Origin: Gemmatimonadales bacterium
Lineage (GTDB): Bacteria; Gemmatimonadota; Gemmatimonadetes; Palauibacterales; Palauibacteraceae
Length of the DNA stretch: 64,000 nucleotides
NCBI GenBank assembly: GCA_050114915.1
Contig: JASFRN010000001.1
Coordinates: 5,020 to 69,019, forward strand
Reading direction: 5' to 3'
The position numbers and the translations under genes were made by a program. Of the stretch, positions 47,218 to 54,991 are shown piece after piece (position 1 is the stretch's first letter; every line of letters begins with the position of its first letter). The notes beneath the pieces are model-generated. The model made no database searches and was not told the origin of the DNA. It saw only the letters and a program-made list of their open reading frames with translations.

Positions 47218-48696
47218 TTGTCGGAATCGAGTGACGGTCCCGCCCGGTCGCTGATCGTCGTCGACGCGGTCAAGGGATGGCCGGTCGAGGTCCCCGGAGC
47301 CGAAGTCGTGACGTCGAGCGACTACCTCACCAATCCCCGCTATGCGGGCGGTGCGGGCACGAAGGTGTTCAACCTCTGTCGCTCGTATCGCTATCAGACG
47401 GCGGGGTACTACGTGTCACTGCTGGCCGCGGCGCGCGGCCACCGGCCGCTTCCGTCCGTGGCGACCCTTCAGGATCTTAGGCTCGCCCCGATCATCCGGC
47501 TGGCCGGCCAGGAGCTCGACGAGCTGATCCAGCGCTCGCTCCGACCGATTCGCTCGAAACGGTTCGAGCTCAGCATCTACTTCGGCCGCAACCTCGCTTC
47601 GCGCTACGACCGGCTCAGCCTCGCCCTGTTCAACCTGTTTCCGGCGCCCCTGCTGCGGGTCACGTTCCGGAAGGCCGATGCGGAGTGGACGATCGATACC
47701 GTGCGTCTGATCGGCGCCGGGGAAATACCGGCGTCTCATCGAGACTTCGTCGTTGAGCAGGCGCGTCGGCACTTCGCGCGCTCGCCGCGCCGCCGCCGCG
47801 AGGCGGAGCGGATGCGCTTCGACCTGGCGATCCTCCACGACCCCGCGGAGGCGCTGCCGCCGTCGGATCCGGCCGCCCTCGGCCGCTTCATCGACGCGGG
47901 CCGTTCGATCGGACTGCGCTGCGAGCTGGTCGAGAAGGACGCCTACGGCCGCGTCGCGGAGTACGATGCCCTGTTCATCCGCGAGACGACGGCCGTGAAC
48001 CACCATACCTACCGGTTCGCCCGCCGGGCGGCGGCCGAGCGCCTTGTGGTGGTCGACGATCCCGAATCGATCCTGCGCTGCTCGAACAAGGTCTTCCTGC
48101 ACGAGACGCTGGTGCGCCACCGGCTCCCCACACCGAAGACGGTGGTGTTCTCGGAGGACACGGCGGGCGAGGTGGAGCGCAAGATCGGGTTTCCGTGCGT
48201 GCTGAAGCAGCCGGACAGCTCGTTCTCACGCGGGGTGACGCGCGTGGATTCCGCCGGGGAGTTCAGCCGCCGGGCCGACGAGTTGTTCGCGGACACCGAG
48301 CTCCTCGTCGCCCAGGAGTTCGTGCCCACGGAATACGATTGGCGGATCGGCGTGCTCGGTGGGGAGCCGCTGTTCGCGTGCCGCTACTACATGGCACGGG
48401 GACACTGGCAGATCGTCCAGCGTACGGGACGCCGGGTTCGAACCGGCCCGGTCGAGACGCTCGCAACGCACGACGTGCCCGCCGGCATCGTCCCCCTGGC
48501 CGTTCGCGCCGCCCGGCTGATCGGTGACGGGCTGTACGGCGTGGACCTCAAGTTGATCGACGGCCGGCCAACCGTCATCGAGATCAACGACAATCCGAAC
48601 ATCGATGCGGGCGTCGAGGACCAGGTGCTCGGCGACGAGCTCTATCTGCGCGTGATGCGCCACTTCCTGTCGCGTCTCGAGGACCGCCGCCGATGA
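47218..48696 (+). CDS. RimK-like ATP-grasp amidoligase with an N-terminal RLAN-like domain
   Basis: The C-terminal 300 aa are a RimK-type ATP-grasp (VVDDPESILRCSNKVFLHETL...CVLKQPDSSFSRGVTRV...GVDLKLIDGRPTVIEINDNP). The N-terminal ~190 aa are a distinct domain. TTG start. Confidence 0.65.
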   Translation: MSESSDGPARSLIVVDAVKGWPVEVPGAEVVTSSDYLTNPRYAGGAGTKVFNLCRSYRYQTAGYYVSLLAAARGHRPLPSVATLQDLRLAPIIRLAGQELDELIQRSLRPIRSKRFELSIYFGRNLASRYDRLSLALFNLFPAPLLRVTFRKADAEWTIDTVRLIGAGEIPASHRDFVVEQARRHFARSPRRRREAERMRFDLAILHDPAEALPPSDPAALGRFIDAGRSIGLRCELVEKDAYGRVAEYDALFIRETTAVNHHTYRFARRAAAERLVVVDDPESILRCSNKVFLHETLVRHRLPTPKTVVFSEDTAGEVERKIGFPCVLKQPDSSFSRGVTRVDSAGEFSRRADELFADTELLVAQEFVPTEYDWRIGVLGGEPLFACRYYMARGHWQIVQRTGRRVRTGPVETLATHDVPAGIVPLAVRAARLIGDGLYGVDLKLIDGRPTVIEINDNPNIDAGVEDQVLGDELYLRVMRHFLSRLEDRRR

Positions 48697-49940
48697 ATCC
48701 CCCGGAGCGAGGCGAATATCCGTTCGGTCTGCTGGAGCGCGTGGGGATCGAGCTCGAGTACATGATCGTCGACATCGAGACGCTCGACGTGCGCCCCCTG
48801 GCCGATCTACTGCTGCGCGACGCGTCGGGCGGCGAGGAATGGGTGTCCGACGTCGAGCCGGAGGACGGCGGCGGCATCGGCTGGTCGAACGAGCTCGTGA
48901 ATCATGTGATCGAGCTCAAGACGATCGAGCCGGTCGCCGACCTCGCCGGCGTGGCCGGACGTTTCCAGCGGCAGGTCGCTGCGATCGAGGCACTTCTCGC
49001 CGGTCGGGGAGGGCGGCTGCTGCCGACGGCCATGCATCCGTGGATGGACCCGTGGACCGAGACGCGGCTGTGGCCGCACGAGCACAGCCCGGTGTACGAG
49101 AAACTCGACGAGATCTTCTCGTGCCGCGGCCACGGCTGGTCGAACCTGCAGAGCGCGCACCTGAATCTCCCGTTCGGCGACGACGCGGAGTTCGGCCGGC
49201 TGCACGCCGCGATCCGCGCCGTCCTGCCGCTGCTGCCGGCTCTCGCGGCCAGCTCGCCCGTGCGCGACGGGGTGCCGACCGGGCTCGCGGACGGCCGTCT
49301 GGCGGCCTACCGGGACAACTGCCGCCGCATTCCGTCGATCACCGGGCGGGTGATTCCCGAGCCGGTATACGACCGCGCTTCCTACGAGGCCGAGATCCTC
49401 GCCCGAATCGGCCGGGACGTGGCCCCGTTCGATGCGGCGGGCGTCCTGCAGCCGGACTGGACGAACGCGCGCGGAGCGATCGCCCGGTTCGATCGCGGAT
49501 CGATCGAGATCCGGTTGCTCGACGTCCAGGAGTGCCCGGCCGCCGACCTGGCGATCGCGGAACTCGTGTGCCGTACGGTGGGGGCGCTGCTGGACGAGCG
49601 CTGGACGCCGCTCTCCGAGCTGCGGGCCCTGTCGACGGGGGAACTGGTCGACGTGCTCGAGCGCACGATCGCCCGCGGCGAGGAGGCGGAAGTAGCGCCG
49701 GGTGCACTGCTGCGGGCGCTGGGGTTGACCGGCGCCCGGGAATCCGCCGGCGAGGTCTGGGCCGCCGTGCGGAGAGAGCTGATGCCCGAGCCGGGCGAGT
49801 TCACCTCCGCCCTGGCGACGATCGAGAACTCCGGTACCCTGGCGACCCGCATCACCCGGCGCCTGGCGACAGGCGCCGGGCTGCGGGACGTCTATGCCGA
49901 GCTCGCGGACTGCCTGTCGATGGGACGTCCGCTGTCCTGA
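48693..49940 (+). CDS. glutamate--cysteine ligase family 2 (GCS2/YbdK-like carboxylate-amine ligase)
   Basis: The ATG overlaps the upstream stop (ATGA). GIELEYMIVD...HLNLPFGDD are GCS2 motifs. Confidence 0.7.
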   Translation: MNPPERGEYPFGLLERVGIELEYMIVDIETLDVRPLADLLLRDASGGEEWVSDVEPEDGGGIGWSNELVNHVIELKTIEPVADLAGVAGRFQRQVAAIEALLAGRGGRLLPTAMHPWMDPWTETRLWPHEHSPVYEKLDEIFSCRGHGWSNLQSAHLNLPFGDDAEFGRLHAAIRAVLPLLPALAASSPVRDGVPTGLADGRLAAYRDNCRRIPSITGRVIPEPVYDRASYEAEILARIGRDVAPFDAAGVLQPDWTNARGAIARFDRGSIEIRLLDVQECPAADLAIAELVCRTVGALLDERWTPLSELRALSTGELVDVLERTIARGEEAEVAPGALLRALGLTGARESAGEVWAAVRRELMPEPGEFTSALATIENSGTLATRITRRLATGAGLRDVYAELADCLSMGRPLS

Positions 49941-49958: not shown

Positions 49959-51227
49959 TTACTCGTCCGCCAGCGACCGGCGCAGCCGGCGTGCCAGCTC
50001 GCTCGTGTCGATCGTCTCGATGTCCGCGTTGCGAACGACCATGCCGAGGGCCCAGATCGCCTGGTCGCGCACGTCGTCGTCCTCGTCTTCCAGCGCGTCG
50101 GAGAGTGGACCCGCGGCGCGCGGGTCTTCGATCATCCCGAGCGCCCAGGCGGCCTGCTCCCGCACCTTTGCGCTCACGTCACGGCCGAGGGCGCGCACCA
50201 GCCCGTCGAGCGCCGCCGCGTCCTCGATCATCCCGAGCCCCCAGGCCGCCTGCTCGCGCACCTCGGCTTCCGGGTCATCGAGCAGGCGGACCAGCGGTTC
50301 GACGGCCTCGCCGCTCTCGATCATCCCGAGGCCCCAGGCCGCCTGTTCGCGCACCTTCGCGTCCGCGTCCCGGGTGAGCCGCGTGAGTGGATCGACACCT
50401 GCGGGGCTCTCGATCATCCCGAGCGCCCACGCGGCCTGCTCCCGCACCTTCGGTGAGGCATCGTCCGTGGCGCGGGCGAGCCACGGCACGGCCCGCGGAT
50501 CTTCGATCATCCCGAGCGCCCACGCCGCTTCCGCCCGCACGGCCGGACTCGTATCCCCGATCAGGGAGCCGAGGGGGTCGACCCCCTCGGCGCTCTCGAT
50601 CATTCCGAGTGCCCATGCGACCTGCTGGCGTACGTCGTCGCTCTCGTCCGAACGGGCCCGGGCGAGGGCCTCCACCGCCCGACTGTCTTCGATCATTCCC
50701 AGCGCCCACGCGGAGCGCTCCCGCACCCGGGCCTCGCCGTCCGAGCCGAGGCGACGCTCGAGGGCCGGCAGCGCCCGGGCGTCTTCCAGCAGGCCGAGTG
50801 CCAGCGCAGCATTGGCGCGTGCCGGTGCCGATCCGCCGTCGAGCACCCGGACGAGGGGGTCGAGCGCCGCCGAGCCGACCTCTTCGAGAGCGATTGCGGC
50901 TTCGCGTCCGGGCGAGCTGTCCTCGTGCCACCCCCGCCGCCAGCCGTAACCGTCGCGGCACAGGCGGCCCTCGACGGTGGAGTCGTCGGCGAGGAGATCC
51001 AGCAGTCGCGGCATCGCCCGGCGCACCGCCGTGGCCCCTAGCTCGCCGAGCTCGCAGGCGGCCATCGCCCGCGCGTGGGCGTCTGCCGCGTCGAGCCCCC
51101 GCAGCAGCTCGTCGACCTCCTGGGCGCCGGCCGGTGCCGCGCACCCGAGTGCCAGGAGGGAGGTAGCGGCGAGCAGGGTGGTCCGGATCAGGTGCGGCCG
51201 CTTCGTCTCGTATGATCGATCGCTCAT
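49959..51227 (-). CDS. secreted HEAT/PBS-lyase repeat protein
   Basis: Signal peptide, then at least nine ~31-aa repeats of the VREQAAWALGMIEDPRAV type. Confidence 0.65.
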   Translation of the reverse strand: MSDRSYETKRPHLIRTTLLAATSLLALGCAAPAGAQEVDELLRGLDAADAHARAMAACELGELGATAVRRAMPRLLDLLADDSTVEGRLCRDGYGWRRGWHEDSSPGREAAIALEEVGSAALDPLVRVLDGGSAPARANAALALGLLEDARALPALERRLGSDGEARVRERSAWALGMIEDSRAVEALARARSDESDDVRQQVAWALGMIESAEGVDPLGSLIGDTSPAVRAEAAWALGMIEDPRAVPWLARATDDASPKVREQAAWALGMIESPAGVDPLTRLTRDADAKVREQAAWGLGMIESGEAVEPLVRLLDDPEAEVREQAAWGLGMIEDAAALDGLVRALGRDVSAKVREQAAWALGMIEDPRAAGPLSDALEDEDDDVRDQAIWALGMVVRNADIETIDTSELARRLRRSLADE

Positions 51228-51310
51228 CGGATCCTCGCTGGTGGTAAAATTTTAGCAGTACGTGGTCCGAAAAAGCCCGCCGGAGCGGGCCTTTCCGGGA
51301 CCGCGGCTGT

Positions 51311-53284
51311 TCAGCCCATGACCTGTCCGAGCGCCCACAGGGCCTGCTTCCGGACATCCGGATCCGGGTCTTCGAGCGCATCGACGATCGTGTCGACGGC
51401 CTCCCGGTCCTCGATCATTCCGAGCGCCCAGACGATCTGCGACCGCACGTCAGATTCGGCCTCCGAGGCGAACGCCGACGACAGGCCCGTCACGGCTTCG
51501 GGGGATTCGATCATCCCGAGGCCCCATGCCGCCTGGCTCCTTACCTCCGCATTCGCATCGCCCAGCAGGCCGAGCAGCGGATCGACGCCGTCGACGCTTT
51601 CGATCATCCCGAGTGCCCAGGCGACTTGCGCCCGAACGGCGTCCGACGGATCACCGGCCGCCTCGGTGAGCGCGGCCACGGCGCGGTCGGATTCGATCAT
51701 CCCGAGCGCCCAAGCCGCCTTCTCACGGACCATGGCGCTCTCGTCGTCCGCGACGACCCCGACGAGCAGATCGACGCCGCGTGGGCTCTCGATCGAGCCG
51801 AGCGTCTGGGCCACCTCTGCGCGCACCTCCGGATCGTCGGACGCCAGCGCCCGGGCGAGCGCATCGTAGACGCGCTGCTCGATGGTGTCGCCCTTCGCCG
51901 CCGTCGCGAGCTCGAGTCCGGCGAGCGCGGTGCTCAGATCGGAGCCCCGGGGTGCAGTCTCGGGCGCCGCCGCCTCCGACTCGTCGGTAGCGGCGGGCGT
52001 CGCTTCTGCCTCTGCCTCCACATTCCGATCGAGTGCCGGGACCGGCGTCTGCCGCTCGAGGGAACGCTCGGCAACCGGCGCCGGCCCTCCCTGGTCGGCC
52101 GGGTCGGCCGAGGCGCTGGCGGTGGCCGGTCGTATGGCCGCTACCGGCAGGAGCAGGGCGGCCGCGCCGACGAAGGCCAGGCGCGACGTGCGCCGGCCGA
52201 GAACCCGACGGCTCCTCCGCTCGTCGAGAATCGCGACCACGCGGTTCTCGAGCTCCGACGGCCGGGCCATCGCGACGGCTGCGCGCGCCGGCTGTCCCGG
52301 TCGCGAGAGTCCACGCGCGATCTCGACCAGGTGATGGGCGTACGAAGGACCGCGCACGCCGGCCGTGAGCACCGCGTCGTCGCAGGCCTGCTCCCGCTCG
52401 GCCGTGATCCGCCGGGCGGCGAACCAGGCGAGGGGATTCGGCCAGTGGACCGCGAGGGCCAGGCGGGCGATCGCCTGGGCCAGGCAATCCCGGCGGCGCA
52501 GGTGCGCGAGCTCGTGGAGGACCACCACCCGGCGGCGCTCCACCGGCCAGGTCTCGAAGTCTTCGGGAAGCACCAGCCAGCGGCCGAGGATTCCCCACGC
52601 CATCGGTACGTTCACTTCGGGGCTGGACACGACGCGGACGCCGCGTCCCAGGCCGGCCTTCAGCGACAGCAGGGAGACGAGGACGTTCCACTGGCGGTCC
52701 GTCACCGGCCGGGCCCTGCGTACGAGCAGCGCCGCCCGGCCGACGTCGACCACGAGGCGCAGGGCGAATGCGAAGAATCCGGCCCCCCAGGCGAGCAGCA
52801 GGAGGGCGGGCCAGGTCAGGCCGGCCTCGCCGGCCGCATTCCCGGGCCGGTGGACACTCTCGACGCGCGAGTCCCGGACGGCGTCCCCGGTCACGGCGGC
52901 AGCGTGCGCTCCGGCGGTCTCGAAGTCGGCGCGGCCGTCGGCCTTCGACATGGTCGGCCCGGTCGGGTCGAACGCCGCCCGTTCCGCCGATGCCGCGATC
53001 GACGCGGGCCCCGTCGCCGGCCAGGCGGCCGTCACCACCTCGGGCAGCGGGACCCTCCAGCCGGGCAGGGCACCGGTGAGGAGCGGCAGGATCAGCAGCC
53101 CCGTCATCGCCAGCATCCAGACGTGATGGCGCAACGAAGCCGGTGCGCGGCGCAGCAGCAGCGTGGCGGCCGTGGCCAGGGCCAGCAGGGCGGCGCCCCG
53201 GAGCAACATCTCTCCGGCGAAGCCGGCCGCCGGCGCGGCGGAGTGTGCGGACAGAGCTTCGAGCAAGGCGTGCATCATCGTCAT
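51311..53284 (-). CDS. BlaR1/MecR1-type M56 peptidase sensor fused to C-terminal HEAT repeats
   Basis: N-terminal TM segments and the M56 zinc motif VVLHELAHLRRRD. The C-terminal ~200 aa carry the same AWALGMIES HEAT repeats as the downstream gene. There is no PBP/beta-lactam sensor domain. Confidence 0.7.
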   Translation of the reverse strand: MTMMHALLEALSAHSAAPAAGFAGEMLLRGAALLALATAATLLLRRAPASLRHHVWMLAMTGLLILPLLTGALPGWRVPLPEVVTAAWPATGPASIAASAERAAFDPTGPTMSKADGRADFETAGAHAAAVTGDAVRDSRVESVHRPGNAAGEAGLTWPALLLLAWGAGFFAFALRLVVDVGRAALLVRRARPVTDRQWNVLVSLLSLKAGLGRGVRVVSSPEVNVPMAWGILGRWLVLPEDFETWPVERRRVVVLHELAHLRRRDCLAQAIARLALAVHWPNPLAWFAARRITAEREQACDDAVLTAGVRGPSYAHHLVEIARGLSRPGQPARAAVAMARPSELENRVVAILDERRSRRVLGRRTSRLAFVGAAALLLPVAAIRPATASASADPADQGGPAPVAERSLERQTPVPALDRNVEAEAEATPAATDESEAAAPETAPRGSDLSTALAGLELATAAKGDTIEQRVYDALARALASDDPEVRAEVAQTLGSIESPRGVDLLVGVVADDESAMVREKAAWALGMIESDRAVAALTEAAGDPSDAVRAQVAWALGMIESVDGVDPLLGLLGDANAEVRSQAAWGLGMIESPEAVTGLSSAFASEAESDVRSQIVWALGMIEDREAVDTIVDALEDPDPDVRKQALWALGQVMG

Positions 53285-53288
53285 CCCC

Positions 53289-53678
53289 TCATCCCTCCTT
53301 GCGGCGCGCGCGCCGTATCAGGTCGGAGAGCCGGTCCAGCTCGGCGTCCGACAACTCCGCGGCGCCCTCGTCCAGGAGCGACGCCATCATCTTCGCGGGA
53401 GAGCCGTCGAAGAACGTCTCGGCGACGTGTGCGAGGGCGGACTGCTTGGCGCGGTCGACGGGCATGTTCGGCTCGTACACGTACCGCGGACCCTCTTCGG
53501 TGTGGTGGATGTGGCCCTTCTCCTCGAGGATGCGCAGCTGGGCGCGTACCGCGGAGTAGCTGGGCGGGTTCGGCAGGTTCTTCTGCACGTCGGCCACGCT
53601 GGCCCGCTCGAGACGGAAGAGCACGTCCATGATCTGTCGTTCCCGCCGGCTCAAGCGATGCTGCAGGCGCTCCACCAT
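53289..53678 (-). CDS. BlaI/MecI/CopY family transcriptional repressor
   Basis: LSRRERQIMDVLFRLERASVADVQKNL...YSAVRAQLRILEEKGHI is a winged helix of the BlaI family. It sits 4 nt upstream of the M56 gene. Confidence 0.75.
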   Translation of the reverse strand: MVERLQHRLSRRERQIMDVLFRLERASVADVQKNLPNPPSYSAVRAQLRILEEKGHIHHTEEGPRYVYEPNMPVDRAKQSALAHVAETFFDGSPAKMMASLLDEGAAELSDAELDRLSDLIRRARRKEG

Positions 53679-53700
53679 GTATCCTCCGATGCTAAATTGC

Positions 53701-53715
53701 TAGCACTAAGTGCTA
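53701..53715. promoter_or_regulatory. perfect 7-1-7 palindrome TAGCACTAAGTGCTA, candidate BlaI-family operator
   Basis: Located 23 nt upstream of the blaI-like start, in a low-GC patch (GCTAAATTGCTAGCACTAAGTGCTAAGTATTTAACA). Confidence 0.4.
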
Positions 53716-53742
53716 AGTATTTAACATCTGGCGCGCGGGGTG

Positions 53743-54039
53743 TCAACTCCCGTCGTCGGGCGTCGCTTCCCGAGAGTCTTCCCACGCCCCCGCCGCCCAC
53801 TGGCCGGCGGCCGCGGCGCCCGCCACGACGCGATCGCCCGTCCACGAAAGCCAATCGCCGACGACCGTTCGGTCGAGGAAGCCGGCCCATACGGCCGCGA
53901 TCACGAGGCCGGCGATCACCAGGGCGGGTTTGAGGATGATCCGCAACGTCTCCCTGACGAGCAGCCAGGCGAGCATTCCCAGGACGCCGAAGAAGACCAG
54001 GGCGCCCACGAGGGACGATGGCACCGGCAGCGCCTCCAT
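53743..54039 (-). CDS. hypothetical small membrane protein
   Basis: Two to three hydrophobic helices (LVGALVFFGVLGMLAWLLV; ALVIAGLVIAAVWAGFL). Confidence 0.4.
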   Translation of the reverse strand: MEALPVPSSLVGALVFFGVLGMLAWLLVRETLRIILKPALVIAGLVIAAVWAGFLDRTVVGDWLSWTGDRVVAGAAAAGQWAAGAWEDSREATPDDGS

Positions 54040-54238
54040 CAGATCGGATCCCCGGATGTCGCCGTCATCTGCGCCTCGCGCCGAAAGTGGTCGTGTCGCG
54101 CCGCGCTCGAAGACCGACGCGGCCGCCGTCCAACTTGCCGTCGGAGGCGTCCGGCCACCAGCCGACCCGATCGAGTGTCAGAGGGTGGCCCCATGATGTG
54201 TCCGTGGAAACGCCCCAGTGGAGGAGAGGAACGCGAAG

Positions 54239-54991
54239 ATGAACATGCTGGCATTCGATATCGAGGCGACGGGCCTGGATCCGTACGAAGACCGGATCCT
54301 CGAACTGGCCGTGATCCGGGTCGAGGACGACGCGCTCGTCTTCCACGCCTTCTTCGATCCGGAGTGCGCAATTCCCGAGGAAGCTACCTCCGTGCACGGG
54401 ATCACCGACGCCGAGGTGGCGGGTTGTCCGACCTTCCGTTCGTACGCGGAGGCGATCCAGCGGCTGGTCGACGGAGCCGTGCTGGTGGGGTTCGTCTCGC
54501 GCCGTTACGACACCCTGCTTCTCGACGCGGAGCTGCGGCGGGCCGGGTGCGGGGGGCTCGATCTCGGAACGGTCCGGGAGATCGACCTGCATCGGGTCTG
54601 GCGGGAAGCGGAGCCGCGCGACCTGGGCACGGCCGTGAAACGCTTCCTCGACCGGGACCACGAGATGGCCCACAAGGCCGTGCCCGATACTCGCGTCCTC
54701 CCGCCGTTGTTGCGCGAAATGGCGAAGGTGTTCGGGTACACCGCCGACGACATGATTCGGCTGAGCCGCCCGGCCTGGGAGGTCGATCGCTCCGGGAAGT
54801 TCCGCCTCGACGAGGAAACCGGAGAGGTCGTGTTCAACTTCGGCCGGCACCGGAGGCAACCCGTGCGGCTGAACGACGAGTACCTCGAGTGGATGCTGGG
54901 GGCGACGTTCCCCCCGGACACGAAGGCGGCGATCAGGGTGCTCCGGCGGAACGGATTCCGCTGGCCACCGGCGGGCGCGGCAGCCGCCTGA
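54239..54991 (+). CDS. DnaQ-like 3'-5' exonuclease (DEDDh) domain protein
   Basis: GGAGGAGAGG lies 8 nt before the ATG at 54239. LAFDIEATGLDP exo I motif, then HGITDAEV, then an H-x4-D region. Confidence 0.65.
   Translation: MNMLAFDIEATGLDPYEDRILELAVIRVEDDALVFHAFFDPECAIPEEATSVHGITDAEVAGCPTFRSYAEAIQRLVDGAVLVGFVSRRYDTLLLDAELRRAGCGGLDLGTVREIDLHRVWREAEPRDLGTAVKRFLDRDHEMAHKAVPDTRVLPPLLREMAKVFGYTADDMIRLSRPAWEVDRSGKFRLDEETGEVVFNFGRHRRQPVRLNDEYLEWMLGATFPPDTKAAIRVLRRNGFRWPPAGAAAA

What the first reader, a model, noticed from the sequence alone, without database searches (positions are those of the whole stretch)
49959..53742. BlaI repressor plus BlaR1-type M56 protease whose sensor domain is replaced by HEAT repeats, plus a secreted HEAT-repeat paralogue, with a perfect palindromic operator
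Seen in the sequence, as a minus-strand operon:
- BlaI-like repressor at 53678..53289.
- M56 membrane protease with the HELAH motif at 53284..51311. Its extracytoplasmic C-terminus is about six AWALGMIES-type HEAT/PBS-lyase repeats, where a BlaR1 would carry a penicillin-binding domain.
- A separate secreted protein (51227..49959) made of nine or more of the same repeats.

A 15-bp perfect palindrome, TAGCACTAAGTGCTA, sits 23 nt upstream of blaI in a low-GC patch. That fits an autoregulated BlaI-type operator.

The system therefore looks like a BlaR1/BlaI-style proteolytic signalling switch that senses something other than beta-lactams. One possibility is a protein-protein interaction through the HEAT arrays of the sensor and the soluble paralogue.
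Basis: partly seen in the sequence, partly recalled or inferred. Interest (0 to 1): 0.55.

Follow-up and report, generated by a model that had tools for sequence, protein, structure and literature searches.

The report
BlaR1-like switch with HEAT-repeat sensor
An uncultured Gemmatimonadales bacterium pairs a BlaI-type repressor with a BlaR1-like membrane protease whose outward-facing sensor is a HEAT-repeat solenoid, not a penicillin-binding domain; repressor-site-like sequences also precede a secreted HEAT-repeat paralogue, so the module probably senses and answers an unknown envelope signal that is not a beta-lactam.

Summary
The M56 protease keeps HEXXH plus the third zinc ligand (E298, aligning to BlaR1 E242). 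Predicted topology puts the protease in the cytoplasm and six HEAT repeats in the periplasm.

Two corrections come from 118 related loci:
- **Operator.** The unit is a 16-bp dyad, TGCTA-N6-TAGCA. Two copies (O1, O2) overlap the blaI promoter.
- **Not one operon.** A strong terminator follows the M56 gene. The HEAT-only gene has its own extended -10 promoter carrying a third dyad (O3). These are the only three dyads (at most 1 mismatch) in 64 kb (0.13 expected).

The arrangement and the dyad before the HEAT-only gene recur in Gemmatimonadota and Acidobacteriota, and dyad variants co-vary. Sensor and partner repeats fix the same Gln/Trp/Met residues at the positions that form the binding face in alphaRep proteins.

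Best reading: a BlaI/BlaR1-type proteolytic derepression switch whose output is a secreted paralogue of its own sensor. The ligand is unknown. This is a new variant of a known kind, of moderate interest.

The parts
53741..53746 (-). -35 box TTGACA of the blaI promoter. It overlaps the stop codon of the upstream small ORF.
   Evidence: Read directly. A TTGACA lies exactly 14 nt upstream of the first dyad in the window and in L081, L083, L085, L087, L088, L089, L100, L101, L110 and L111.
53711..53726 (-). Operator dyad O1, TGTTAAATACTTAGCA (1 mismatch to TGCTA-N6-TAGCA). It contains the extended -10 element TGnTAAATA.
   Evidence: The identical 16-mer is found in L081, L082, L083 and L111; L085 has TGGTAAATACTTAGCA at the same place.
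53701..53715 (.). It consists of the right half of O1, the spacer CTTAG and the left half of O2.
   Evidence: The central spacer is not conserved in length or symmetry in L083, L085, L110 or L111.
53690..53705 (-). Operator dyad O2, TGCTAGCAATTTAGCA (perfect). It lies between the -10 element and the Shine-Dalgarno sequence.
   Evidence: It is conserved as TGCTA-N6-TAGCA in relatives.
53289..53678 (-). blaI-like repressor gene (129 aa).
   Evidence: Pfam Penicillinase_R, E = 1.7e-23. [quoted passage not shown] There is no C-terminal Cys motif.
51311..53284 (-). M56 metalloprotease fused to a HEAT-repeat domain (657 aa). It has 4 transmembrane helices, a cytoplasmic protease domain and a periplasmic C-terminus.
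52502..52516 (-). Codons for HELAH (H257, E258, H261), the zinc-binding and catalytic motif.
   Evidence: H257, E258 and H261 are invariant in 23 homologues. The motif aligns to HEYAH of S. aureus BlaR1.
52391..52393 (-). Codon for E298, the third zinc ligand, in the EREQACDD motif.
   Evidence: Invariant. By counting from the printed alignment end-points it aligns to position 242 of PDB 8exs/8exp BlaR1.
51314..51877 (-). Six HEAT/PBS-type repeats (aa 470-657), the predicted periplasmic sensor domain.
   Evidence: Block-mean pLDDT 92-99 (96-99 up to aa 650), 12 helices. Foldseek matches alphaRep with rmsd 1.4 A over 189 columns.
51264..51302 (-). Intrinsic terminator hairpin followed by a U-run, directly after the M56 stop codon.
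   Evidence: RNA fold gives -31.7 kcal/mol, z = -4.2, and 0 of 200 shuffles fold as well. A hairpin plus T-run with different stem sequences sits at the same place in L081, L083, L084, L085, L087, L088, L089 and L092.
51242..51257 (-). Dyad O3, TGCTAAAATTTTACCA (1 mismatch). It overlaps the extended -10 element TGCTAAAAT and ends 14 nt upstream of the HEAT-only ATG.
   Evidence: Equivalent sites occur in L004, L005 and L006 (perfect), in L081, L089 and L092 (1 mismatch) and in L011 (two copies of that lineage's variant).
49959..51227 (-). Secreted HEAT-only paralogue (422 aa). It has a signal peptide, an N-terminal module with a conserved Cys pair, and 9 canonical repeats.

Best explanation
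This is a BlaI/BlaR1-type proteolytic derepression switch with a non-beta-lactam sensor and a two-promoter regulon.

**Resting state (inferred from the family and the site positions).** BlaI dimers occupy two tandem 16-bp dyads. O1 covers the -10 region of the blaI-M56 promoter and O2 lies between the -10 element and the Shine-Dalgarno sequence. A third dyad, O3, covers the extended -10 of a separate promoter for the HEAT-only gene, downstream of a terminator.

**Signalling (inferred).**
- The M56 protein has BlaR1's topology: N-terminus out, zinc protease in the cytoplasm, C-terminal domain out.
- Its periplasmic domain is a six-repeat HEAT solenoid on a disordered tether of about 80 residues.
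- Binding of an extracytoplasmic ligand to the concave face activates the protease. The long tether makes clustering of sensors on a periodic or multivalent ligand more likely than rigid coupling.
- The protease removes BlaI, and both promoters fire.

**Output.** The main output is a secreted (in this clade possibly lipid-anchored) eleven-or-so-repeat paralogue of the sensor. It carries the same Gln/Trp/Met/Glu ladder. It most likely binds or sequesters the same ligand, which both protects the envelope and feeds back negatively on the sensor. This is analogous to the penicillin-binding BlaR1 sensor controlling a penicillin-binding or -hydrolysing output.

**Shown here:** domains, catalytic residues, dyads and their conservation, the terminator, synteny and the shared ladder.
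**Inferred:** BlaI binding to the dyads, cleavage of BlaI, the ligand class and sequestration.
For: - **Families.** Penicillinase_R, E = 1.7e-23; Peptidase_M56, E = 1e-29; HEAT_2, E = 6.5e-42 and 6e-117.
- **Catalytic set.** H257, E258, H261 and E298 are invariant in 23 homologues and align to BlaR1 HEYAH and position 242.
- **Topology.** Four hydrophobic helices. K/R counts are 0 in the N-terminus, 3 in the 12-aa TM1-2 loop and 31 in the protease loop. The C-terminal linker is acidic.
- **Dyads.** TGCTA-N6-TAGCA at up to 1 mismatch occurs exactly 3 times in 64 kb, all at these two promoters. The expectation is 0.13, and 0 of 100 shuffles reach 3.
- **The same dyad elsewhere.**
  - It lies upstream of blaI in most of 80 genome loci, often in tandem and sometimes single, which fixes the unit.
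  - 24 of 33 M56-HEAT loci with upstream sequence have it near blaI.
  - A dyad at up to 2 mismatches lies within 220 nt after the M56 stop in 22 of 42 loci, against a background of 0.26 per kb.
- **Co-variation.** L011 uses TGCTGA-N4-TCAGCA both at blaI and, twice, at its HEAT-only gene.
- **HEAT-only genes with no blaI/M56 ORF in the held flank.** Those in L100, L101 and L108 carry tandem dyads; L109 has one dyad at up to 1 mismatch followed by a TGCTG/CAGCA variant.
- **Terminator.** -31.7 kcal/mol, z = -4.2. It is conserved in position with different stems in relatives.
- **Synteny.** Kept from 84% down to about 35% identity and across phyla.
- **Ladder.**
  - Positions matching alphaRep's variable, concave binding positions 22/23, 26 and 30 (PMC3754942) are fixed as (E/S)Q, W and M in nearly every repeat of both proteins.
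  - The ladder changes together in sensor and partner in L002 (W-L-KGD) and L011 (W-Q).
  - Within-genome sensor-partner identity (48-56%) does not exceed between-lineage identity. The shared ladder is therefore not recent gene conversion.
- **Partner is extracytoplasmic.** It has a signal peptide and, in most of the orthologues printed across Gemmatimonadota and Acidobacteriota, an A-x-A|Q-like cleavage motif and a Cys pair (MAAC...GRLC).
Against: - There is no experimental evidence for any step, and the organism is an uncultured MAG.
- The right half of O3 is degenerate in the window's close clade (TACCA, TAACA, TACCT). There it could be mainly an extended -10 promoter.
- The S. aureus BlaI cleavage dipeptide (Asn-Phe) is not conserved in this BlaI, judged by my own by-eye alignment.
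- A disordered tether of about 80 aa between TM4 and the HEAT domain (block-mean pLDDT below 50) makes BlaR1-style allosteric coupling hard to picture.
- In Vicinamibacterales loci the sensor ladder (F/Q/R) differs from the partner ladder (W/A). That fits a 'same ligand' model less well.
- 13 of about 37 M56-HEAT loci have no HEAT-only gene nearby.
Confidence: 0.6

Rival explanations
1. Sensor-partner interaction. The secreted HEAT protein is not a ligand sink. It is a co-receptor or feedback inhibitor that docks onto the sensor's HEAT domain, concave face to concave face. The signal is then the presence, absence or modification of the partner, not a free ligand.
For: - alphaRep proteins can bind each other through their concave faces (A3/bA3-2 complex; PMC3754942).
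- The sensor and partner ladders co-vary.
- In Vicinamibacterales the two ladders differ in a consistent way (F/Q/R against W/A in 5 loci). That looks more like complementarity than shared specificity.
- The partner has a conserved extra N-terminal Cys-loop module that the sensor lacks.
- A long tether would suit capture of a soluble or outer-membrane-anchored partner.
Against: - No interaction was computed, because no multimer prediction was available.
- 13 of about 37 M56-HEAT loci lack a neighbouring partner.
- Partner-type genes also occur in loci whose held flanks show no blaI or M56 ORF (L100, L101, L108, L109).
- Identical ladders on both proteins in the window clade would mean like-with-like contacts (Trp/Met/Gln against Trp/Met/Gln). 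That is possible but is not a typical complementary interface.
Confidence: 0.22
2. The HEAT domain is an anchor or scaffold, not a sensor. It tethers the protease to an envelope structure, or recruits substrates. The M56 protease would be switched by something else, for example a metal ion acting on the protease itself as proposed for cyanobacterial PetP, or membrane or envelope damage.
For: - M56/BlaI pairs that lack any sensor domain still signal. PetR/PetP respond to copper (PMC7896320). M. tuberculosis and M. abscessus BlaIR and P. aeruginosa PvmSR also lack the sensor domain (bioRxiv 10.64898/2026.08.03.742534).
- The disordered tether argues against direct conformational coupling.
Against: - The HEAT domain is the best-conserved part of the protein after the catalytic core.
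- Its putative binding face is fixed in every repeat.
- The regulated output is a paralogue of this very domain. That is hard to explain if the domain has no part in the signal.
Confidence: 0.1
3. The TGCTA-N6-TAGCA elements are promoter architecture, not repressor sites. They would be extended -10 elements plus an AT-rich spacer typical of these phyla. The HEAT-only gene is then simply a neighbouring, independently expressed gene.
For: - TGnTAnnnT inside each dyad reads as an extended -10.
- In the window clade only the left half of O3 is strictly conserved.
- The consensus promoter scan did not call a sigma-70 promoter here.
Against: - A promoter element need not be a dyad, yet the right half TAGCA is conserved at O1 and O2 and at the HEAT-only gene in L004, L005 and L006 (perfect) and in L092.
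- Tandem copies are the rule.
- Half-site variants change together on both arms and at both promoters in L011.
- In the 64-kb window the motif occurs only at these two promoters, although dozens of other genes need promoters.
Confidence: 0.06

Closest known systems
Staphylococcus aureus / Bacillus licheniformis BlaR1-BlaI-BlaZ and MecR1-MecI-PBP2a
   Same: - Winged-helix BlaI-family repressor encoded next to a 4-TM M56 zinc protease.
- HEXXH plus a downstream Glu ligand.
- N-out, C-out topology with an extracytoplasmic C-terminal sensor.
- Tandem dyad operators overlapping the promoter, giving autoregulation.
- A separately promoted output gene under the same operator type.
- The output protein belongs to the same ligand-binding class as the sensor.
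   Different: - The sensor is a HEAT solenoid on a long disordered tether, not a penicillin-binding (class D beta-lactamase-like) domain seated on TM4.
- The operator half-sites are TGCTA/TAGCA with a 6-bp spacer, not TACA/TGTA (the latter from my own knowledge).
- Gene order is blaI then M56.
- The BlaI Asn-Phe cleavage site is not conserved.
- NCBIfam blaR1_generic scores 69.6 against a cut-off of 400.
Cyanobacterial PetR/PetP (copper-dependent plastocyanin / cytochrome c6 switch)
   Same: A BlaI-family regulator degraded through a BlaR1-family M56 protease in response to a signal that is not a beta-lactam, with a small dedicated regulon (PMC7896320).
   Different: Copper is proposed to act on the PetP protease itself, and I know of no HEAT domain in it. 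Its regulon is photosynthetic electron carriers. Here there is a large dedicated periplasmic domain, and the output is its paralogue.
Sensor-less BlaIR systems: M. tuberculosis Rv1846c/Rv1845c, M. abscessus MAB_2415c/2414c and P. aeruginosa PvmSR
   Same: A BlaI/M56 pair with HEXXH and EXXXD motifs that lacks the beta-lactam sensor domain, with an unknown or non-canonical signal (bioRxiv 10.64898/2026.08.03.742534).
   Different: Those proteins have lost the C-terminal domain. This one has it replaced by another fold and has a co-regulated paralogue.
Prokaryotic HEAT-like / PBS-lyase repeats and their designed derivatives (alphaRep; MTH187, YibA, CpcE/CpcF, NblB)
   Same: A 31-residue two-helix repeat with the core VRxxAAxALGxI. 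The predicted fold superposes on alphaRep at 1.4 A. The binding surface is formed by positions 18, 19, 22, 23, 26 and 30.
   Different: - In natural families and in the libraries those positions are the variable ones. Here 22/23, 26 and 30 are fixed, giving a uniform Gln/Trp/Met ladder.
- These proteins are exported, and one is fused to a membrane protease.
- Phycobilin-lyase equivalog scores are far below their cut-offs (CpcE 100.9 against 330).
Importin-alpha / designed armadillo repeat proteins
   Same: A solenoid that presents one conserved aromatic and polar ladder per repeat and binds an extended, periodic peptide in modular fashion (my own knowledge). The Pfam Arm model also hits these proteins (4.4e-15 and 5.5e-33), and Foldseek lists designed ARM-peptide complexes.
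   Different: Two-helix HEAT repeats, not three-helix ARM repeats. The resemblance is one of logic only, and no ligand is known.

Membership tests
BlaI/MecI/CopY repressors (Pfam PF03965 Penicillinase_R) | Winged-helix DNA-binding domain plus C-terminal dimerisation helices, matching the family profile above its gathering score. | tested here: met
   83.6 bits against a cut-off of 22.6, profile positions 1-114 of 115. A weak phmmer match to the B. licheniformis BlaI N-domain, 1p6r.
BlaI/MecI/CopY repressors (Pfam PF03965 Penicillinase_R) | Dyad-symmetric operator(s) overlapping its own promoter. | tested here: met
   Two TGCTA-N6-TAGCA dyads lie over the -10 region and upstream of the Shine-Dalgarno sequence and are conserved across related loci. 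Binding itself was not tested.
BlaI/MecI/CopY repressors (Pfam PF03965 Penicillinase_R) | Inactivation by cleavage in the dimerisation domain (Asn101-Phe102 in S. aureus BlaI). | tested here: inconclusive
   The equivalent stretch reads ...KMMASLLDEGAAEL... with no Asn-Phe (aligned by eye to my recollection of S. aureus BlaI). Cleavage cannot be tested in silico.
CopY/TcrY copper repressors (NCBIfam TIGR02698) | C-terminal CxCx4CxC metal-binding motif and an equivalog score above the cut-off. | tested here: not met
   32.3 bits against a cut-off of 121.95. The protein has no cysteine in its C-terminal half.
Peptidase family M56 (BlaR1/MecR1-like) | HEXXH zinc motif plus a downstream Glu ligand (ExxxD). 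| tested here: met
   H257, E258, H261, E298 and D302 are invariant in 23 homologues. They align to HEYAH and, by counting from the printed alignment ends, positions 242/246 of BlaR1 8exs. Pfam gives 104.1 bits against a cut-off of 31.
Peptidase family M56 (BlaR1/MecR1-like) | Four-TM topology with the protease domain between TM3 and TM4 on the cytoplasmic side. | tested here: met
   Hydropathy and the positive-inside rule. The AF2 model has helices at the same places. This is prediction only.
Peptidase family M56 (BlaR1/MecR1-like) | Gene adjacent to, and co-oriented with, a blaI-family gene. | tested here: met
   A 4-nt gap in the window. A co-oriented blaI ORF sits directly upstream of the M56 gene in most of the 80 genome loci.
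BlaR1/MecR1 proper (beta-lactam sensor-transducers; NCBIfam NF000326 blaR1_generic) | C-terminal penicillin-binding (transpeptidase / class-D-like) sensor domain, and an equivalog score above the cut-off. | tested here: not met
   No transpeptidase or beta-lactamase Pfam hit; the C-terminus is HEAT. NF000326 gives 69.6 bits against a cut-off of 400 and matches only aa 162-308.
HEAT_PBS / alphaRep-type HEAT-like repeats | Tandem repeats of about 31 aa and two helices with a VRxxAAxALGxIG core, forming a right-handed alpha-solenoid. | tested here: met
   HEAT_2 and HEAT_PBS hits, repeat register, phmmer against alphaRep at 2.6e-53, AF2 block-mean pLDDT 92-99 and Foldseek rmsd 1.4 A.
Phycobilin lyases / NblB (CpcE, CpcF, NblB equivalogs) | Equivalog-level similarity. 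| tested here: not met
   For the HEAT-only protein, CpcE gives 100.9 against 330, NblB 74.9 against 300 and CpcF 50.6 against 220. This is repeat-level similarity only.

The most novel reading that the evidence does not exclude
The module defines a widespread, unstudied envelope-surveillance circuit of Gemmatimonadota and Acidobacteriota. A membrane protease carries a tethered solenoid, and its secreted paralogue carries the same solenoid type. Both read a periodic polymer in the periplasm (an extended or unfolded polypeptide, a peptide antibiotic, or a glycan strand) with an identical one-Trp-per-repeat ladder. Multivalent binding clusters the sensors and triggers BlaI proteolysis. The induced paralogue then coats or sequesters the polymer and switches the system off. 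In some lineages an ADOP (MacB-like) permease is part of the same output. This would be a new ligand class and a new activation mode (clustering through a flexible tether) for BlaR1-type signalling.
Probability: 0.2. Interest if true: 0.7.

Novelty: new variant of a known kind. Interest (0 to 1): 0.5.

Why it matters
BlaR1/BlaI is the textbook one-way proteolytic signal for beta-lactam resistance. Evidence is growing that the same chassis senses other things: copper in cyanobacteria, and unknown cues in mycobacteria and Pseudomonas.

- **A domain swap that keeps the logic.** The output is a paralogue of the sensor, as in the bla and mec systems where sensor and output share a ligand class.
- **A testable operator code.** TGCTA-N6-TAGCA and its lineage-specific variants recur upstream of blaI in most of the 80 M56/BlaI loci retrieved from soil and sediment phyla.
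- **A concrete regulon.** This makes the system experimentally approachable by EMSA, reporter fusions and binding screens with the soluble partner.
- **Possible outcome.** Finding the ligand could reveal a new envelope-stress or antibiotic-sensing pathway in poorly studied, abundant soil bacteria.
- **A natural uniform binding face.** These proteins are natural alphaRep-like solenoids with a fixed repeat-by-repeat binding face, which may interest protein engineers.

Tried and rejected
- **CopY-like metal-sensing repressor.** Rejected: no Cys motif, and the score is far below the cut-off.
- **Phycobilin-lyase or NblB function for the HEAT proteins.** Rejected: equivalog scores are far below their cut-offs, and the proteins are exported.
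- **Cu(I) binding by the Met/Trp ladder.** Considered unlikely. There is one Met per repeat and no His or Cys in the repeats. Met is replaced by Leu, Gln or Ala in other lineages that keep the system.
- **Recent gene conversion as the cause of the shared ladder.** Rejected: within-genome sensor-partner identity (48-56%) is no higher than between-lineage identity.
- **The 15-bp palindrome as the operator unit.** Rejected in favour of two flanking 16-bp dyads, because single-copy sites in L002, L005, L011, L030 and L050 are TGCTA-N6-TAGCA, and the inter-dyad spacer varies from 3 to 6 bp.
- **scan_promoters_terminators.** It found neither the promoter nor the terminator. Its rules require T at -10 position 6 and a T-run outside the stem. 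I therefore relied on folding and on conservation.
- **Foldseek of the full-length model against the PDB.** The HEAT domain dominated, and no BlaR1 chain appeared in the top 50. Membership in M56 therefore rests on sequence.
- **The search for homologous proteins with the partner's N-terminal module.** It returned one weak hit. The partner's exact sequence is absent from that collection. The exhaustive representative search worked instead: 3020 hits at E up to 1e-3.
- **Literature searches** for M56 + HEAT or for this operator found nothing specific.

Full report
**What is there**

Three co-oriented genes lie on the minus strand.
- 53678..53289 encodes a 129-aa protein matching Penicillinase_R (BlaI/MecI/CopY), E = 1.7e-23.
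- 53284..51311 encodes a 657-aa protein with Peptidase_M56 (E = 1e-29, aa 157-352) and HEAT repeats (HEAT_2, E = 6.5e-42) at its C-terminus.
- 51227..49959 encodes a 422-aa protein made almost entirely of the same repeats (HEAT_2, E = 6e-117, nine stretches).

[quoted passage not shown] The 15-bp palindrome is at 53701-53715, in a 52%-GC patch of a roughly 72%-GC region. It is the only site in the window matching at up to 3 mismatches, reported on both strands because it is palindromic.

**The protease is intact and has BlaR1's topology**

In an alignment of 23 M56-HEAT homologues (33-86% identity), H257, E258, H261, E298, C301, D302 and D303 are invariant. A phmmer alignment to S. aureus BlaR1 (PDB 8exs/8exp) puts HELAH on HEYAH. 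Counting from the printed alignment end-points puts E298 on position 242, which from my own knowledge is the third zinc ligand.

Hydropathy gives four TM helices at about 26-44, 55-73, 158-180 and 367-387. The N-terminus has no K/R, the short TM1-2 loop has three, and the TM3-4 protease region has 31. The post-TM4 linker is acidic. This gives N-terminus out, protease in the cytoplasm and C-terminus out.

AlphaFold2 with the 23-sequence alignment models the M56 core mostly above pLDDT 90. It models aa 470-657 as 12 helices (six repeats) with block-mean pLDDT 92-99 (96-99 up to aa 650). Residues 88-153 (TM2-3 loop) and about 389-461 (tether) have pLDDT below 50. The HEAT domain superposes on designed alphaRep proteins at 1.4 A over 189 columns.

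**The operator is a 16-bp dyad, present three times**

I took the regions upstream of blaI in 80 M56 loci from species-representative genomes (gene calls). The recurrent element is TGCTA-N6-TAGCA with an AT-rich spacer. It is usually in two tandem copies 3-6 bp apart, downstream of a TTGACA.

Several loci have a single copy (L002, L005, L011, L030, L050). This shows that the unit is TGCTA-N6-TAGCA and not TAGCA-N-TGCTA.

In the window, read on the minus strand, the sequence is:
TTGACA(53746-53741)-N14-TGTTAAATACTTAGCA(O1, 53726-53711)-CTTAG-TGCTAGCAATTTAGCA(O2, 53705-53690)-tcGGAGGAtacATG.

Close relatives keep O1 and O2 but not the spacer. L083 and L085 have tcgtga, L110 has tcaag and L111 has tcatag. 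Only L081 (84% identical protease), and L082, a second contig carrying the same protein, share CTTAG.

A search for TGCTA-N6-TAGCA at up to 1 mismatch finds exactly three sites in 64 kb: O1, O2 and a third, O3, at 51242-51257. The expectation is 0.13, and no shuffle out of 100 reaches three. Allowing 2 mismatches adds six sites, against a chance expectation of 3.26 for all sites at that threshold; I did not examine them.

**The third gene is a separate, co-regulated transcription unit**

Directly after the M56 stop codon is a GC-rich hairpin with a U-run (51302-51264; -31.7 kcal/mol, z = -4.2). O3 (TGCTAAAATTTTACCA) follows, and its left part reads as an extended -10 (TGCTAAAAT). It ends 14 nt before the ATG of the HEAT-only gene.

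Relatives show the same layout with different terminator stems (L081, L083, L084, L085, L087, L088, L089, L092).
- In the window's clade the left half-site is strict and the right half is degenerate.
- In Acidobacteriota loci L004, L005 and L006 the dyad before the HEAT-only gene is perfect.
- L011 (Gemmatimonadota) uses the variant TGCTGA-N4-TCAGCA at blaI and has two copies of that same variant before its HEAT-only gene. This is co-variation between the two promoters.

HEAT-only genes in loci whose held flanks show no blaI or M56 ORF also carry the element: tandem dyads in L100, L101 and L108, and one dyad plus a TGCTG/CAGCA variant in L109.

Over 42 M56-HEAT loci:
- 22 have a dyad (up to 2 mismatches) within 220 nt after the M56 stop, against a background of 0.26 per kb.
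- 24 of about 37 loci with enough downstream sequence have a HEAT-only gene downstream.
- In L086 and L096 an ADOP duplicated permease lies between the dyad and the HEAT-only gene. It matches TIGR03434 at 2.8e-275 in L086. L090 and L105 carry the same post-M56 dyad, but their downstream ORFs were not examined.

**What the HEAT arrays look like**

Both proteins use the repeat xxVR(E/S)QAAWALGMIE(S/D)xxAVxPLxxLLxDxx. In the alphaRep scaffold built from this repeat family, positions 18, 19, 22, 23, 26 and 30 are the naturally hypervariable ones. They form the concave binding face (PMC3754942).

Here positions 22/23, 26 and 30 are fixed as (E/S)Q, W and M in nearly every repeat of both the sensor and the partner. 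The result is a uniform Gln/Trp/Met ladder, with Glu replacing the usual Gly after Ile.

The ladder is the same in sensor and partner in the window clade, in L001 and in L081-L095. It changes in both together in L002 (W-L-KGD) and L011 (W-Q). In Vicinamibacterales it differs consistently, with sensor F/Q/R and partner W/A.

Within-genome sensor-partner identity (48-56%) is not higher than identity between lineages (52-62%). The two are therefore old paralogues, and the shared ladder is maintained by selection and not copied by recent conversion.

The partner has, in addition:
- a signal peptide with an A-x-A|Q-like site, plus an L-G-C lipobox-like motif conserved in the close clade;
- an N-terminal module with a Cys pair (MAAC...GRLC) and an SSPGREAA loop that recurs in most orthologues printed, across phyla. 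This fits an oxidising, extracytoplasmic location.

An exhaustive search with that module finds 3020 representatives at E up to 1e-3. Many are 250-450-aa proteins with a hydrophobic N-terminus and the 'ERAxAAC' cap.

**Mechanism**

The best-supported model is a BlaI/BlaR1-type derepression switch.
1. BlaI dimers on O1 and O2 shut off blaI-M56, and BlaI on O3 shuts off the HEAT-only gene.
2. A periplasmic ligand engages the sensor's Trp ladder.
3. The cytoplasmic zinc protease is activated and removes BlaI.
4. The secreted paralogue is made in quantity from its own promoter.

Sensor and output share the same binding face. The simplest function for the output is therefore to bind the same ligand, which gives protection plus negative feedback. 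This parallels penicillin-binding BlaR1/MecR1 controlling BlaZ/PBP2a.

A repeat-by-repeat identical face suggests a periodic ligand, either an extended peptide (as on importin-alpha or designed ARM proteins) or a glycan strand. The disordered tether of about 80 aa argues for activation by clustering and not by rigid coupling. These last points are inference.

**Comparison and novelty**

The proteins are members of PF03965 and of peptidase family M56. The protease is not a BlaR1/MecR1 orthologue: it has no penicillin-binding domain, and NF000326 scores 69.6 against a cut-off of 400. The repressor is not a CopY.

BlaI/M56 pairs that sense something other than beta-lactams are already known: PetR/PetP and the sensor-less mycobacterial and Pseudomonas systems. 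The M56+HEAT architecture is already present, unstudied, in public annotation across Gemmatimonadota, Acidobacteriota, Longimicrobium and a gammaproteobacterial MAG. I found no paper on it.

What appears to be new:
- the sensor swap together with a co-regulated secreted paralogue;
- the operator definition and its conservation;
- the fixed binding ladder.

I rate this as a new variant of a known kind, with moderate interest (0.5).

Noticed in passing
window 53743-54039 (-): A 98-aa ORF with two predicted TM helices lies directly upstream on the same strand, and its TGA stop overlaps the blaI -35 box. Gene callers also call it: 98 aa in L081 and L082, 95 aa in L083, and it appears as a hypothetical protein at NCBI and JGI. 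It has no Pfam or NCBIfam hit. Whether it belongs to the module is unknown.
   Followed up: partly
L086 3025-5436 and L096 5665-8097; dyads at L086 2983, L090 5050, L096 5571 and L105 481: In L086 and L096 (39-42% identical sensors) the gene behind the post-M56 dyad is an ADOP-family duplicated MacB/FtsX-like permease (TIGR03434, 2.8e-275 in L086), and the HEAT-only gene follows it. L090 and L105 carry the same dyad, but their downstream ORFs were not examined. This hints that the output can include an export or extrusion device.
   Followed up: partly
L001-L080, upstream of blaI: BlaI operators of non-HEAT M56 systems keep the same 5-6-5 geometry, but the half-sites differ between loci. TGCTA/TAGCA recurs in loci from many phyla. 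CGTTA/TAACG and GGTTA/TAACC occur in several Verrucomicrobiota and Planctomycetota loci, TGCGA/TCGCA in L069, GCGAA/TTCGC in L052, GTTGA/TCAAC in L013 and L060, and TGTCA/TGACA in L075. How paralogous systems that share TGCTA/TAGCA avoid cross-talk is unexplained.
   Followed up: partly
window 51311-53284 (-), aa 88-153 and 389-461; L096 2947-5523: Both periplasmic segments that flank the folded parts are low-complexity and predicted disordered. In L096 the tether is a Q/E/L-rich repeat (QLQEQ...) of about 150 aa. Tether length and composition vary widely between orthologues.
   Followed up: no
window 53289-53678 (-); protein cluster: The repressor is much more conserved than its protease. BlaI proteins from contigs whose M56 proteins are only 59-84% identical to the window's fall into one 90%-identity cluster of 22 members.
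   Followed up: no
window 49959-51227 (-); L081 7052-8320: The HEAT-only protein's exact sequence is absent from the 15-billion-protein collection. Its 422-aa L081 orthologue has no Pfam hit on record, despite a HEAT_2 E-value of 6e-117 when scanned directly. The family may be under-annotated in precomputed resources.
   Followed up: partly
window 47218-49940 (+): Convergent with the HEAT-only gene is a pair with overlapping stop and start codons: a RimK-like ATP-grasp protein with an RLAN N-domain (E = 4.2e-47) and a GCS2 carboxylate-amine ligase (E = 2.3e-24). The GCS2 gene is syntenic in L081, where a further ORF follows it. It is probably unrelated to the module.
   Followed up: no
window 54218-54991 (+): An RNase_T/DnaQ-like exonuclease gene is divergently oriented upstream of the small membrane ORF. 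It is syntenic in L081, L082 and L083, together with an MscS-type channel and an HD-domain gene in L081 and L083.
   Followed up: no
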